From Rickettsiales bacterium (lineage in GTDB: Bacteria; Pseudomonadota; Alphaproteobacteria; Rickettsiales; JABIRX01): a DNA stretch of 64,000 nt. The DNA lies in assembly GCA_038120515.1 (NCBI GenBank), contig JAYOLW010000004.1, positions 10,605 to 74,604 on the forward strand, in the 5' to 3' direction. Numbering within the stretch: the first letter of the stretch is position 1; the number at the start of each line of letters is the position of its first letter. Of the stretch, positions 14,571 to 15,851 are shown in pieces. The notes beneath the pieces were generated by a model. That model was given only the letters and a program-made list of their open reading frames with translations. It made no database searches and was not told where the DNA came from. Position numbers and translations under genes: made by a program.

Positions 14571-15851
14571 ATGAGTGAATTTAAAAAATCTACAGATTGG
14601 TTGTTCTTATCATCTCTTGCCATTGCTCTTGCTGGACTTTTTTCGATTGTTATCGTTTTTGCTAGAGTTCCAGTTTTAAAAGACATTTTACCTTTTGCCG
14701 ATTTGTTCAAGACTGCACTCGTTATTCATGTTGATTTGTCTCAAATTTTTTGGTTTATGACAGCTTCAATAGCTTTATCATTAACATGTTTTACCGCTGA
14801 TAAAACTGTTAATAAAGTTTTACAATCTCTTACCGTAATTTCATTAATTTTAATTACCATTTCAGTATTTCTAGGTGGTACAGCAATTTTAGCTAATTAT
14901 GTGCCTTTCATCGATGAAAACCTAGCTTTTAGTTTGTCACTAGGTTTGTTTTTTTCTGTCATAATAATTTACAACGCATATTTTTTAAGCTTTGCCAATG
15001 CTAAAACTAAGGACATTACAAAATTAATTTGTCATCTAAATCATCTAGTTATAATTGCAGCATTTATTTCAATGTTTTTAACTATAAAAACACTATATAA
15101 CTTTTTCCCTATTAGTGAATTTTATGAATATTTATTCTGGGGATTTGGTCATTTACTTCAGTATTCATACTGCTTGATCCTAATTTTTTGCTGGCTTAAA
15201 CTAACAAATTACAAAACTAATTTTCCAAATACTTTAAAAACAATTATCATCATTCATGCAGTTTTTGTTGTTTCGGCAATTGCATATTTCGTAAAGCCAG
15301 AAATTAGCTCTTATAAACTTTTCTTCACTCATCATATGAAATTCTTAGCGATTGCACCAATATTGCTTCTAATTTTAATTTATTTTGATCGACGTAATAC
15401 ATCTTTTAACAAACCTTCATTCGATCAATATTATTTTACTACATCAGTAATTTTATTTGTTGCAGGCGGTTTTATAGCATTATTTATCAGAGAAAGTAAT
15501 ACTATTATCCCCGCTCATTATCATGGTAGTATTGTGGCTATAACTATTGCGATTATGGGATTTATAATGTCGCAGTTTCATTCACAAAAACTAATAAAAC
15601 CAAATCTGAAAACTGTAAAATTAATTCCTTTATGTTATTTCTCTGGTCAATTAATGCATATATCTGGACTGGCACTATCAGGAGGATATGGAGCACTTAG
15701 AAAATCTCCAGATTCCATCACTAATTTCAAAGCCCAATTTTGGATGGGAATTATGGGCATGGGTGGCCTTATTGCGATTATTTCCGGTTTGCTTTTTATT
15801 TATGTAAGCTATAATGCATTTCAAATTTATAAAAATAAGAAAAATGACTAA
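14571..15851 (+). CDS. heme-copper oxidase subunit I-like 12-TM protein (short, orphan)
   Basis: Ordered ligand motifs of HCO subunit I: IH53VDLSQIFWF (helix II His), FWGFGH194LLQY198 (CuB His plus Tyr at +4, cf. FWFFGHPEVY), TH254H255M (CuB His pair), AH316YH318 (helix X His-x-His). About 12 predicted TM helices. No subunit II or III adjacent. Confidence 0.7.
   Translation: MSEFKKSTDWLFLSSLAIALAGLFSIVIVFARVPVLKDILPFADLFKTALVIHVDLSQIFWFMTASIALSLTCFTADKTVNKVLQSLTVISLILITISVFLGGTAILANYVPFIDENLAFSLSLGLFFSVIIIYNAYFLSFANAKTKDITKLICHLNHLVIIAAFISMFLTIKTLYNFFPISEFYEYLFWGFGHLLQYSYCLILIFCWLKLTNYKTNFPNTLKTIIIIHAVFVVSAIAYFVKPEISSYKLFFTHHMKFLAIAPILLLILIYFDRRNTSFNKPSFDQYYFTTSVILFVAGGFIALFIRESNTIIPAHYHGSIVAITIAIMGFIMSQFHSQKLIKPNLKTVKLIPLCYFSGQLMHISGLALSGGYGALRKSPDSITNFKAQFWMGIMGMGGLIAIISGLLFIYVSYNAFQIYKNKKND

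What the first reader, a model, noticed from the sequence alone, without database searches (positions are those of the whole stretch)
14571..15851. Orphan, compact heme-copper oxidase subunit I homologue with a full ligand set, divergent from ctaA-hemA
Seen in sequence:
- A 426-aa protein with about 12 TM helices carries, in the correct order, the four signature elements of HCO subunit I.
- These are H53 in helix II (VIHVDLSQIFWF); FWGFGH194LLQY198, matching FWFFGHPEVY with the His-Tyr +4 spacing of A/B-type oxidases; TH254H255M; and AH316YH318.
- It is about 100 aa shorter than canonical CoxA/CtaD.
- No subunit II (CuA or quinol site) or subunit III gene is adjacent.
- It is transcribed divergently from ctaA (heme A synthase), which overlaps ALAS-type hemA.

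Established knowledge: those six His residues bind the low-spin heme, the high-spin heme and CuB, and the Tyr is cross-linked to a CuB His.

Inference: this is a stand-alone binuclear-centre protein. Candidate roles are O2 or NO sensing or detoxification, a heme A handling or assembly factor, or an unusual minimal oxidase, rather than part of a classical aa3 operon.
Basis: partly seen in the sequence, partly recalled or inferred. Interest (0 to 1): 0.55.

Follow-up and report, generated by a model that had tools for sequence, protein, structure and literature searches.

The report
Copper-site-less oxidase paralogue beside ctaA
The gene is real and encodes a relative of the catalytic subunit of respiratory oxidases, but it belongs to a widespread, uncharacterised family that keeps the two heme sites, has lost the copper site, and sits next to the heme A synthase gene in many bacteria, so it more likely helps make or deliver heme A than acts as a small oxidase.

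Summary
The ORF at 14571-15851 (+), 426 aa, is real. An AlphaFold model (pLDDT 91, pTM 0.93) has the 12-helix subunit I fold of heme-copper oxidases, closest to Thermus ba3.

The "full ligand set" does not hold up. Across 252 family members, H53, H194, H316, H318 and the R377/K378 heme-propionate pair are 98-100% conserved. H254 is His in only 16 and H255 in 106. Only 2 of 252, one being the window protein, have both plus Y198.

A profile-profile alignment to eNOR-type subunit I (99.85%, E 9e-31) puts the true helix VII metal-ligand pair at Y239/F240. H254/H255 lie 14 residues downstream, so the family has two heme sites and one of three CuB/FeB histidines.

The family is discrete: 812 clusters at E<1e-30 and at least 578 species. 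These include Rickettsiales, Rickettsia among them, and many Gammaproteobacteria. ctaA lies immediately upstream and divergent in 37 of 74 informative loci. ctaA or ctaB lies within about 6 kb in 62 of 82. Other members sit inside aa3 cox clusters or at the end of eNOR operons, where a 2026 preprint calls a gene at that operon position, annotated COX1-like, an "eNOR scaffold protein" of unknown function.

Best reading: a non-catalytic, two-heme paralogue working with heme A synthase. The mechanism is inferred.

The parts
14571..15851 (+). Gene for a 426-aa, 12-TM paralogue of heme-copper oxidoreductase subunit I, called 'HCOL' here. It has two heme sites and no CuB/FeB site.
   Evidence: ORF. 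AF2 model pLDDT 91.4, pTM 0.93. Foldseek best hits are T. thermophilus ba3 subunit I, E 5e-6, TM 0.69-0.73. hhalign to eNOR-type subunit I gives 99.85%, E 9.4e-31.
14727..14729 (+). Codon of H53, the helix II ligand of the low-spin heme.
   Evidence: His in 251 of 252 members. Aligns to ba3 H72, the A-type helix II His and eNOR H69.
15138..15164 (+). Helix VI motif W190-G-F-G-H194-L-L-Q197-Y198. H194 is the only retained CuB/FeB-type His. Q197 is family-invariant and shared with eNOR GHSSQQ. Y198 sits at the cross-link Tyr position.
   Evidence: W190 252/252, H194 252/252, Q197 250/252. Position 198 is F in 206 and Y in only 26. Aligned to FWWTGHPxxY of ba3 and WWxxGHSSQQ of eNOR.
15285..15290 (+). 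Codons of Y239-F240, which occupy the positions homologous to the canonical helix VII His-His metal ligands. They are not His here.
   Evidence: hhalign column mapping to eNOR H280/H281. No column in 228-262 has a conserved His.
15327..15338 (+). T253-H254-H255-M256. T253 and M256 are family-conserved. H254 and H255 are lineage-specific and are not the CuB pair.
   Evidence: T253 240/252, M256 250/252, H254 16/252, H255 106/252, both His in 9/252. They align to eNOR T297-S298-Y299-A300.
15510..15530 (+). Helix X motif P314-A-H316-Y-H318-G-S. H316 is the proximal ligand of the high-spin heme. H318 is the second ligand of the low-spin heme.
   Evidence: H316 251/252, H318 249/252. Aligns to ba3 PGHFHLQ, A-type AHFHY and eNOR PGHFHAT.
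15648..15704 (+). Helix XI Q360/H363 and the loop pair R377-K378. R377-K378 is the counterpart of the Arg-Arg pair that binds the heme propionates in canonical oxidases.
   Evidence: Q360 249, H363 248, R377 250, K378 251 of 252. Aligned to PQHF...MPRR of A-type and ...SRRH of eNOR. The propionate-binding role is from established knowledge of A- and B-type structures.
13521..14540 (-). ctaA (heme A synthase), transcribed divergently from HCOL. Public gene calls start it 57 nt later, which leaves an 87-bp shared intergenic region.
   Evidence: PF02628 on the called product. NF045570 alphaproteobacterial heme A synthase, 267 bits: the only NCBIfam hit, below the 550-bit cut-off. Divergent ctaA adjacency recurs in 37 of 74 informative loci.
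12341..13531 (-). hemA (5-aminolevulinate synthase), overlapping the ctaA stop by 11 nt.
   Evidence: TIGR01821, 540.9 bits, above the 338.55 cut-off. The ALAS-ctaA | HCOL arrangement recurs in 11 further alphaproteobacterial loci, and ALAS lies near HCOL in 14 of 82.
14484..14570 (.). Short AT-rich divergent intergenic region between ctaA and HCOL. It is the presumed shared promoter region.
   Evidence: Sequence read. The promoter scan was no better than shuffles, so shared regulation is inferred from geometry only.
15844..16104 (+). grxC (glutaredoxin 3). Its start overlaps the HCOL stop by 8 nt. tsaD follows with no gap, so an HCOL-grxC-tsaD operon is likely.
   Evidence: Gene calls. TIGR02181, 107.4 bits, above cut-off.

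Best explanation
**What it is**
- The gene encodes a non-catalytic paralogue of heme-copper oxidoreductase subunit I. Its nearest catalytic relatives are the eNOR / B-family enzymes.
- It keeps the whole heme-binding apparatus:
  - the bis-His low-spin site, H53 + H318;
  - the proximal His of the high-spin site, H316;
  - the propionate-binding R377/K378 pair.
- It has lost two of the three histidines that hold CuB or FeB, has no conserved cross-link Tyr, and has no subunit II.

**What it most likely does**
- It works in the heme A branch of oxidase biogenesis together with heme A synthase CtaA, and with heme O synthase CtaB in other lineages.
- Most probably it is a membrane protein that docks to CtaA in the way a nascent subunit I does. 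It would take up or hold farnesylated heme (heme a or o). That would stabilise or unload the synthase and hand the heme on to the real oxidase subunit I.
- In this genome it would be co-expressed with ctaA-hemA from a shared divergent promoter region.

**Shown**
- Fold, ligand mapping, conservation pattern, family size and gene-neighbourhood statistics.
- Protein-level expression of the Ferrigenium gene that is inferred, not shown, to be a member.

**Inferred**
- That hemes are actually bound, which heme it is, the physical contact with CtaA, and the hand-over role.
For: **Fold and homology**
- AF2 model pLDDT 91.4. Foldseek hits are only HCO subunits I: ba3, aa3-600, cbb3, cNOR and mitochondrial COX1.
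- Profile versus PDB hits only ba3. hhalign gives E 9.4e-31 to eNOR-type subunit I against 4.8e-7 to A-type.

**Heme sites kept, metal site lost**
- Counts over 252 members are.
- The canonical HH aligns to Y239/F240.
- Helix VIII has no conserved polar chain apart from T253.

**Association with heme A/O synthesis** holds across Alpha- and Gammaproteobacteria at only 30-35% protein identity.
- ctaA is immediately upstream and divergent in 37 of 74 loci, and within 6 kb in 46 of 82.
- ctaA or ctaB is within 6 kb in 62 of 82. Any oxidase or biogenesis gene is within 6 kb in 66 of 82.
- Precomputed Pfam confirms COX15-CtaA next to the homologue in a Rickettsiales endosymbiont and in Thiodiazotropha.

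**It coexists with real oxidases** rather than replacing them.
- It sits inside the coxA-cox11-coxC-surf1-ctaB | HCOL | ctaA-sco1 clusters of Gammaproteobacteria.
- It sits at the end of eNOR-I-ctaB-sco1-cyt b/FeS operons.

**Expression**
- F. straubiae gene 2878407321 is called 'eNOR scaffold protein'. KEGG annotates it K02274 (COX1). It sits at the same operon position as pattern-C members. Its sequence was not compared, so family membership is inferred.
- It was detected in the proteome at a level similar to eNOR I (preprint 10.64898/2026.01.22.701106).

**Other**
- The family is retained in reduced Rickettsia genomes.
- A published pull-down study is summarised in its abstract as addressing CtaA and metallochaperone interactions during subunit I assembly (PMC5249081, listed). 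The paper was not read in detail.
Against: - No biochemical datum exists for any member, so heme content is unknown.
- Gene adjacency shows a functional link, not the mechanism.
- In Rickettsiaceae the gene sits next to folE, with no ctaA nearby (8 loci).
- About 20% of loci show no oxidase-related neighbour, though some of these have short flanks.
- Strict conservation of H194, Q197, T253, M256 and E186 around the would-be distal pocket is more than a passive heme holder obviously needs.
- In 13 of 82 loci a cytochrome b / 4Fe-4S / FlpD fusion gene lies close upstream. One contig encodes a cytochrome b-HCOL fusion. Both hint at electron transfer.
- Model coordinates could not be inspected, so the pocket geometry is untested.
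Confidence: 0.5

Rival explanations
1. It is a redox-active enzyme or gas sensor with a new, metal-free distal pocket. The high-spin heme on H316, faced by H194, Q197, T253 and M256, binds O2 or NO. It would reduce, detoxify or sense the gas, for example to tune the O2-dependent heme A synthase.
For: - H194, Q197, T253, M256, E186 and N109-Y110-P112 are invariant or nearly so.
- Q197 is shared with the eNOR GHSSQQ motif.
- Some members lie next to nirS/cytochrome d1 genes, a NosR-like gene and hemerythrin genes.
- Cytochrome b/FeS genes lie upstream in 13 of 82 loci, which would supply electrons.
Against: - Every characterised HCO needs CuB or FeB on three His. Murali et al. 2024 state that gNOR is the first family to replace even one (PMC11214002).
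- There is no conserved proton-channel residue chain in helix VIII.
- There is no electron-entry subunit II.
- The denitrification neighbours are confined to the eNOR-operon subset. The ctaA/ctaB link is general.
Confidence: 0.2
2. It is the membrane electron-transfer partner of heme A synthase. Its two hemes relay electrons to CtaA for the O2-dependent oxidation of heme O to heme A. The electrons would come from quinol, or from a cytochrome b/FeS module where one is present.
For: - Conserved divergent pairing with ctaA.
- The two-heme relay architecture is retained.
- Cytochrome b / Fer4 / FlpD fusion genes lie directly upstream in eNOR-type operons. There is one cytochrome b-HCOL fusion protein, P0135.
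- The bacterial reductant of CtaA is unknown. This is from established knowledge; mitochondrial Cox15 uses ferredoxin.
Against: - The fusion is seen on a single 3.9-kb metagenome contig.
- The cytochrome b/FeS genes are absent from the window and from most ctaA-linked loci.
- No quinol-site residues could be identified.
- A relay would not need the retained helix VI His/Gln pocket.
Confidence: 0.15
3. It is a permanent structural ('scaffold') subunit of the mature eNOR or aa3 complex or supercomplex, rather than a biogenesis factor.
For: - It is named 'eNOR scaffold protein' in the preprint.
- It is found in the proteome at levels comparable to eNOR I.
- It is encoded inside oxidase gene clusters.
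Against: - In Rickettsiales it is linked to ctaA-hemA, not to oxidase structural genes.
- Solved aa3 and other HCO complexes that matched by fold show only the catalytic subunit I as the related chain.
Confidence: 0.1
4. One reading: in this particular lineage the protein is a genuine heme-CuB binuclear-centre protein, a minimal stand-alone oxidase. It would use H194, H254 and H255 as copper ligands and Y198 as the cross-linked Tyr.
For: - The window protein and P0003 do carry H254, H255 and Y198 together.
- H254/H255 lie at the periplasmic start of helix VIII in the model's secondary structure, so proximity to the pocket cannot be excluded without coordinates.
Against: - The pair is 14 residues away from the homologous ligand positions.
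- The spacing is 60 residues instead of 49.
- A relative at 84% identity has HQ, and relatives at 62-66% have KS or KH.
- There is no subunit II, no copper-chaperone gene nearby and no conserved proton path.
Confidence: 0.04

Closest known systems
eNOR subunit I (heme-copper-superfamily NO reductase related to the B family; Murali et al. 2024, PMC11214002)
   Same: - It is the closest catalytic relative by profile-profile comparison: 99.85%, E 9.4e-31 over 430 columns.
- It has the same 12-TM fold.
- It shares the helix II His, helix X HxH, helix VI W..GH..Q, the Y-x-P loop motif and the basic pair after helix XI.
- Both are encoded with ctaB, sco1 and often ctaA.
   Different: - eNOR keeps the helix VII His-His (H280/H281 in the L074 protein) and the second Gln of GHSSQQ.
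- eNOR is about 100 aa longer and has a CuA subunit II.
- This family has Y/F/I at the HH positions and no partner subunit.
'eNOR scaffold protein' of Ferrigenium straubiae (IMG gene 2878407321; bioRxiv 10.64898/2026.01.22.701106)
   Same: - It is annotated as hypothetical / KEGG COX1.
- It sits after heme O synthase, sco1, a cytochrome b-like gene and a small hypothetical gene in the eNOR operon.
- That order is identical to relatives of the window protein in L074 and eight or more other loci.
- Its function is stated to be unknown.
   Different: - The window gene is not in an eNOR operon. It is paired with ctaA-hemA in a small AT-rich alphaproteobacterial genome.
- The sequence of 2878407321 was not available, so identity with the family is inferred from gene order and annotation only.
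Thermus thermophilus cytochrome ba3 subunit I (B-family oxidase; e.g. 1XME, 3S8F)
   Same: - It is the best solved-structure match by sequence profile (E 1e-7) and by fold (E 5e-6, TM 0.69-0.73).
- The ligand columns H72, H233, H384 and H386 align to H53, H194, H316 and H318.
   Different: - ba3 has H282/H283, the cross-linked Y237, subunits II and IIa, and a K-type proton path.
- Only about 16% identity.
Surf1/Shy1 and CtaM (proposed heme a insertion factors)
   Same: - Proposed 'works like': a membrane protein acting between heme A synthase and subunit I.
- It is encoded in the same clusters. SURF1 is present in 13 of 82 loci.
   Different: - There is no sequence or fold relationship.
- Surf1 is a two-TM periplasmic-domain protein.
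- The family coexists with SURF1 in gammaproteobacterial clusters, so it is not a simple replacement.

Membership tests
Heme-copper oxidoreductase superfamily, subunit I (Pfam PF00115 COX1) | 12-transmembrane-helix subunit I fold | tested here: met
   The AF2 model shows 12 long helices, pLDDT 91.4. The top 32 Foldseek PDB hits are all HCO subunits I, TM up to 0.73.
Heme-copper oxidoreductase superfamily, subunit I (Pfam PF00115 COX1) | Significant sequence match to the family profile | tested here: met
   The window protein alone gives no PF00115 hit. Of 25 aligned relatives, 13 hit (best E 5e-18). The family profile matches ba3, A-type CoxA (E 4.8e-7) and eNOR-I (E 9.4e-31).
Heme-copper oxidoreductase superfamily, subunit I (Pfam PF00115 COX1) | Bis-His ligation of the low-spin heme (helix II His + second His of the helix X HxH) | tested here: met
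   H53 is conserved in 251/252 and H318 in 249/252, in the homologous columns. Actual heme binding was not tested.
Heme-copper oxidoreductase superfamily, subunit I (Pfam PF00115 COX1) | Proximal His of the high-spin heme (first His of the helix X HxH) | tested here: met
   H316 is conserved in 251/252, in the homologous column.
Heme-copper oxidoreductase superfamily, subunit I (Pfam PF00115 COX1) | Three His ligands of CuB/FeB (one in helix VI, an adjacent pair in helix VII) | tested here: not met
   Only H194 is retained (252/252). The pair positions align to Y239/F240. There is no conserved His in 228-262. H254/H255 are both His in 9/252.
A/B-type oxygen reductases | Cross-linked Tyr four residues after the helix VI His | tested here: inconclusive
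   Y198 is at His+4 in the window protein, but the column is F in 206 and Y in 26 of 252. A cross-link cannot be tested in silico.
A/B-type oxygen reductases | Partner subunit II (CuA or quinol site) encoded with subunit I | tested here: not met
   The window neighbours are ctaA, hemA, uvrB, grx3, tsaD and three unknown proteins. In relatives the only subunit I/II-type genes belong to a separate canonical oxidase or eNOR.
eNOR (Murali et al. 2024) | Three-His metal site, GHSSQQ-type helix VI and a CuA subunit II | tested here: not met
   H194 and Q197 are shared. The second Gln is replaced by F or Y, the helix VII HH is lost, and there is no subunit II.
'eNOR scaffold protein' (Ferrigenium preprint) | COX1-like ORF at the distal end of an eNOR II-eNOR I-ctaB-sco1-cyt b operon | tested here: not met
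   Relatives in L026, L031, L042, L052, L057, L072, L074, L069 and L084 meet it. The window gene is instead paired with ctaA-hemA, and no eNOR lies in the 64 kb.
'eNOR scaffold protein' (Ferrigenium preprint) | Sequence homology to F. straubiae gene 2878407321 | not testable with these tools
   The IMG sequence is not held. Only its annotation (K02274) and operon position are available.
NnrS (heme- and copper-containing membrane protein, PF05940) | Match to PF05940 | tested here: not met
   No such hit even at E<=10.

The most novel reading that the evidence does not exclude
- This family would be the dedicated membrane partner of heme A synthase in Proteobacteria, including Rickettsia. It is an oxidase-subunit-I look-alike that has given up catalysis. 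It would receive heme a from CtaA, or feed CtaA electrons, before the heme is passed to the real oxidase.
- It would be the first member of the heme-copper superfamily whose job is cofactor biogenesis rather than O2/NO chemistry.
- It would give an experimental handle on two open questions: how heme a leaves CtaA, and what reduces CtaA in bacteria.
Probability: 0.3. Interest if true: 0.75.

Novelty: new variant of a known kind. Interest (0 to 1): 0.58.

Why it matters
- The heme-copper superfamily is among the best-studied membrane enzyme families. The latest survey states that every family keeps the three active-site histidines except gNOR, which replaces one (PMC11214002).
- Here is a large, coherent family: 812 clusters at 50% identity and at least 578 species. 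It has lost two of the three histidines yet keeps both heme sites under near-absolute conservation.
- It is genomically tied to heme A and heme O synthases across two proteobacterial classes.
- It survives in the reduced genomes of Rickettsia.
- It has no Pfam or NCBIfam model of its own. PGAP names it 'cbb3-type cytochrome c oxidase subunit I' and IMG names it 'cytochrome c oxidase subunit 1'. Both names inflate oxidase counts in metabolic reconstructions.
- If its role with CtaA is confirmed, it fills a gap in bacterial, and by ancestry mitochondrial, oxidase biogenesis.

Tried and rejected
- **Single-sequence searches.** Pfam, NCBIfam and PDB searches with the window protein found nothing useful. 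The only hit was DUF6463 at E 0.043, treated as noise. Homology became visible only through family profiles.
- **Motif scan of the window.** A scan for a canonical CoxA (GHP.VY, W..GH, HH[MF][FY]) found none. Pfam on ten large window ORFs found only housekeeping genes. Whether the genome has ctaC/D/E elsewhere could not be answered.
- **Promoter and terminator scan** of 14300-16200 was no better than shuffles in this AT-rich DNA. No regulatory claim is made.
- **First neighbour analysis.** BLASTP with one CtaA query missed distant CtaA, and all-vs-all clustering merged SCO1-like and spurious high-GC ORFs with CtaA. It was replaced by iterated HMMs with best-family assignment.
- **Fusion proteins as Rosetta stones.** No CtaA fusion was found.
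  - P0135 is a cytochrome b-HCOL fusion seen on one 3.9-kb contig only.
  - P0208 carries a C-terminal TPR.
  - Both are treated as weak.
- **A-type alignment of the helix VII region** was low-confidence. The much stronger eNOR alignment was used instead.
- **Literature.** Five full-text searches returned results, and one more failed on a term-length error. Seven papers or preprints were opened. The only mention of such a protein is the single 'eNOR scaffold protein' phrase.
- **NnrS, cNOR/qNOR, cbb3 CcoN.** All were rejected as the family assignment. The PGAP name is generic.
  - NnrS gives no Pfam hit.
  - cNOR/qNOR and cbb3 CcoN give weaker Foldseek hits than ba3.
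Full report
**1. The observation**

The window contains an intact ORF at 14571..15851 (+) of 426 aa. 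Gene callers found the identical product on three independent metagenome contigs with the same neighbours.

The neighbours are as described:
- ctaA, divergent: PF02628, and NF045570 as the only NCBIfam hit but below its cut-off.
- hemA of the ALAS type: TIGR01821, above cut-off, overlapping the ctaA stop by 11 nt.
- uvrB further upstream.
- Downstream, grx3 overlaps the stop codon by 8 nt and is followed directly by tsaD.

No subunit II or III gene is nearby. No canonical CoxA motif exists anywhere in the 64 kb.

**2. Is it a heme-copper oxidase subunit I homologue?**

Yes, but only profiles show it. The protein alone hits nothing in Pfam, NCBIfam or the PDB.

- It has 419 homologues in the word-indexed search. 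Many of these carry PF00115 and generic 'cytochrome c oxidase subunit I' names.
- Of 25 aligned relatives, 13 hit PF00115.
- A 25-sequence profile hits only Thermus ba3 subunit I in the PDB (E 1e-7).
- An AlphaFold2 model built on 116 relatives is confident (pLDDT 91.4, pTM 0.93) and has 12 long helices.
- Its Foldseek matches are exclusively HCO subunits I. ba3 is best (E 5e-6, TM 0.69-0.73), followed by aa3-600, cbb3, cNOR and mitochondrial COX1.

**3. The ligand set**

I aligned 252 family members to the family HMM and counted residues.

| Residue(s) | Role or position | Conservation (of 252) |
|---|---|---|
| H53 | helix II, low-spin heme | 251 |
| H194 | helix VI, CuB-type His | 252 |
| H316 | helix X, high-spin heme | 251 |
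| H318 | helix X, low-spin heme | 249 |
| W190 | helix VI | 252 |
| Q197 | helix VI | 250 |
| M256 | start of helix VIII | 250 |
| T253 | start of helix VIII | 240 |
| H363 | helix XI | 248 |
| R377 / K378 | heme-propionate pair | 250 / 251 |
| H254 + H255 | both His | 9 |
| Y198 | His+4 position | 26 (F in 206) |

A relative at 84% identity has HQ, and one at 65% has KS.

The positions were mapped in three alignments.
- **Against ba3 and A-type CoxA from related loci (hhalign E 4.8e-7).** H53, H194, H316, H318 and R377/K378 fall in the ligand and propionate columns.
- **Against eNOR-type subunit I taken from related operons.** The match is far stronger: 99.85%, E 9.4e-31, 430 columns.
  - The metal-ligand pair H280/H281 of eNOR aligns to Y239/F240 of the window protein.
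  - T253-H254-H255-M256 aligns to T297-S298-Y299-A300, which is 14 residues downstream.
- **Spacing agrees.** It is 49 residues from the helix VI His to the pair in the six eNOR-type subunits (53 in the two A-type subunits) from related loci. From H194 to H254 it is 60.

No column between 228 and 262 has a conserved His. The family therefore has a complete two-heme apparatus and one of three CuB/FeB histidines.

**4. Size and spread of the family**

- An exhaustive profile search of 1.84 billion cluster representatives gave 812 proteins at E<1e-30 and 1325 at 1e-10. Only 1739 reached 1e-3. The family is discrete and barely touches canonical oxidases.
These include:
  - Rickettsiales, among them Rickettsia, and other Alphaproteobacteria;
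  - many Gammaproteobacteria, such as Thiodiazotropha and other sulfur-oxidising symbionts, Chromatiaceae, Sedimenticolaceae, Woeseiaceae and Thiotrichales;
  - Magnetococcales.
- NCBIfam has no model for it.

**5. Genomic context**

Neighbours in 82 non-redundant loci were labelled with iterated HMMs and spot-checked with Pfam. Genes found within about 6 kb:

| Neighbour | Loci (of 82) |
|---|---|
| ctaA | 46 |
| ctaB | 26 |
| ctaA or ctaB | 62 |
| any oxidase or oxidase-biogenesis gene | 66 |

Among the 74 loci with enough upstream flank, ctaA is immediately upstream and divergent in 37. That is exactly the arrangement in the window.

Four arrangements recur:
- **(A) Alphaproteobacteria and Rickettsiales:** hemA(ALAS)-ctaA divergent from the gene. 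This is the window's arrangement and is shared by eleven other loci.
- **(A2) Rickettsiaceae:** the gene is followed by folE, with no ctaA nearby.
- **(B) Gammaproteobacteria:** the gene lies between ctaA-sco1-DUF2189 on one side and ctaB-x-surf1-coxC-cox11-coxA on the other. It is inside an A-type aa3 cluster whose CoxA has the canonical FWFFGHPEVY, HH and HFHY motifs.
- **(C) eNOR operons:** the gene is last in eNOR-type subunit I (WWxxGHSSQQ) - ctaB - sco1 - cytochrome b/4Fe-4S/FlpD fusion - small ORF - gene. A NosR-like gene and nirS often follow.

Independent precomputed annotations confirm COX15-CtaA next to the homologue in a complete Rickettsiales endosymbiont genome and in Thiodiazotropha.

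The family thus always accompanies real oxidases or their heme A/O synthases. It never replaces subunit I.

**6. Literature**

- Murali et al. 2024 describe the new HCO families. [quoted passage not shown] This family is not described there.
[quoted passage not shown] - Its supplement identifies that gene (2878407321) as an IMG hypothetical protein with KEGG K02274 (COX1). It sits after a cytochrome b-like gene and a hypothetical gene. It was detected in the proteome at 28.0, against 31.6 for eNOR I.
- Gene order and annotation match arrangement C, so this is very probably the same family. I could not compare sequences.
- Reviews of oxidase assembly factors and of CtaA evolution do not mention it.

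**7. What it most likely does**

Shown:
- The fold.
- Two heme sites retained under near-absolute constraint.
- The metal site, the Tyr and the partner subunit lost.
- No conserved polar chain in helix VIII.
- A deep and repeated link to ctaA and ctaB.
- Protein-level expression of the Ferrigenium 'eNOR scaffold protein', inferred to be a member.

Inferred: it is a non-catalytic subunit I paralogue working in the heme A branch. Most plausibly it docks to CtaA as a nascent subunit I would, and takes up or holds heme a or o for delivery to the real oxidase. I put 0.5 on this broad reading, and less on the specific hand-over mechanism.

Rivals:
- A redox enzyme or gas sensor with a His/Gln/Met distal pocket (0.2). 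The invariant H194, Q197, T253 and M256 and the denitrification neighbours of type C support it. The absence of any metal site, proton path or electron-entry subunit weakens it.
- An electron relay to CtaA (0.15). The cytochrome b/FeS neighbours and one cytochrome b fusion on a single short contig support it.
- A permanent structural subunit of the mature oxidase or eNOR complex (0.1).

**8. Novelty and verdict**

- The window gene is a member of a large but essentially uncharacterised family. The only mention I found of such a protein is one phrase in a preprint.
- The family is a new variant within the heme-copper superfamily. It has two hemes and one of three active-site histidines, and it is tied to heme A synthase rather than to a subunit II.
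The favoured 'binuclear centre' interpretation is not supported. The alternative 'heme A handling or assembly factor' is the best-supported direction.
- Interest is moderate to good. A specialist would be surprised by an HCO family without the metal site that is conserved even in Rickettsia, and the ctaA link is directly testable.

Noticed in passing
L081:90-1676 (+), Rickettsia asembonensis NZ_JWSW01000007.1: The Rickettsia member of the family carries an in-frame Rickettsia palindromic element. TIGR03777 RPE4 matches residues 409-434 at 26.3 bits, above the cut-off. The element sits in the C-terminal part of the protein.
   Followed up: no
window 17145-19974 (-): Three consecutive ORFs of 389, 261 and 276 aa have no Pfam or NCBIfam hit. 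The 261-aa product starts with a type IV pilin-like hydrophobic N-terminus (KKAFSILELAIVIIIIAIIM). They lie between tsaD and dnaA.
   Followed up: partly
window 15844-17142 (+): The grx3 start overlaps the HCOL stop by 8 nt, and tsaD starts one base after the grx3 stop. An HCOL-grx3-tsaD operon is likely. In Thiodiazotropha the gene downstream of the homologue is a thioredoxin-fold redoxin, so a thiol-redox gene follows in two distant lineages.
   Followed up: partly
L074:221-13287 and similar loci L026, L031, L042, L052, L057, L072: Gammaproteobacterial MAGs carry eNOR-type operons. Their subunit I has the WWxxGHSSQQ motif. Each operon includes a 510-aa cytochrome b + 4Fe-4S + FlpD fusion protein and a 167-aa ORF with no Pfam match. 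A NosR-like FMN_bind/Fer4_5 protein, nirS and a d1-domain protein follow.
   Followed up: partly
L089:2-2287 (+), JGI 3300043242 Ga0484933_009203: A single 761-aa protein, P0135, fuses an N-terminal cytochrome b domain (PF00033) to a member of the family. It is seen on one 3.9-kb contig, and the ORF reaches the contig end, so it may be real or an assembly or frameshift artefact.
   Followed up: partly
window 33418-38157 (+): A 1579-aa large NAD-specific glutamate dehydrogenase (PF05088, 808 bits, with all accessory domains) is encoded in this small-looking, roughly 30% GC genome segment.
   Followed up: no
window 47720-49726 (-): A 668-aa ORF has no Pfam family at E<=1e-5.
   Followed up: no
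L010, CAXPEK010000098.1 ('Candidatus Actinomarina sp.' MAG): A 3.3-kb contig binned into an actinobacterial MAG carries the ctaA | HCOL pair at 38% identity to the window protein. All other carriers are Proteobacteria, apart from one MAG labelled 'Nitrospirae' (L065), so this looks like a binning error rather than a true actinobacterial member.
   Followed up: no
L040 and L041 (CAZNNM010000006.1 and CAZNNM010000002.1, same Rickettsiales MAG): The same ctaA-hemA ... HCOL region appears with identical coordinates on two contigs of one MAG. This is either a large duplication or redundant assembly.
   Followed up: no
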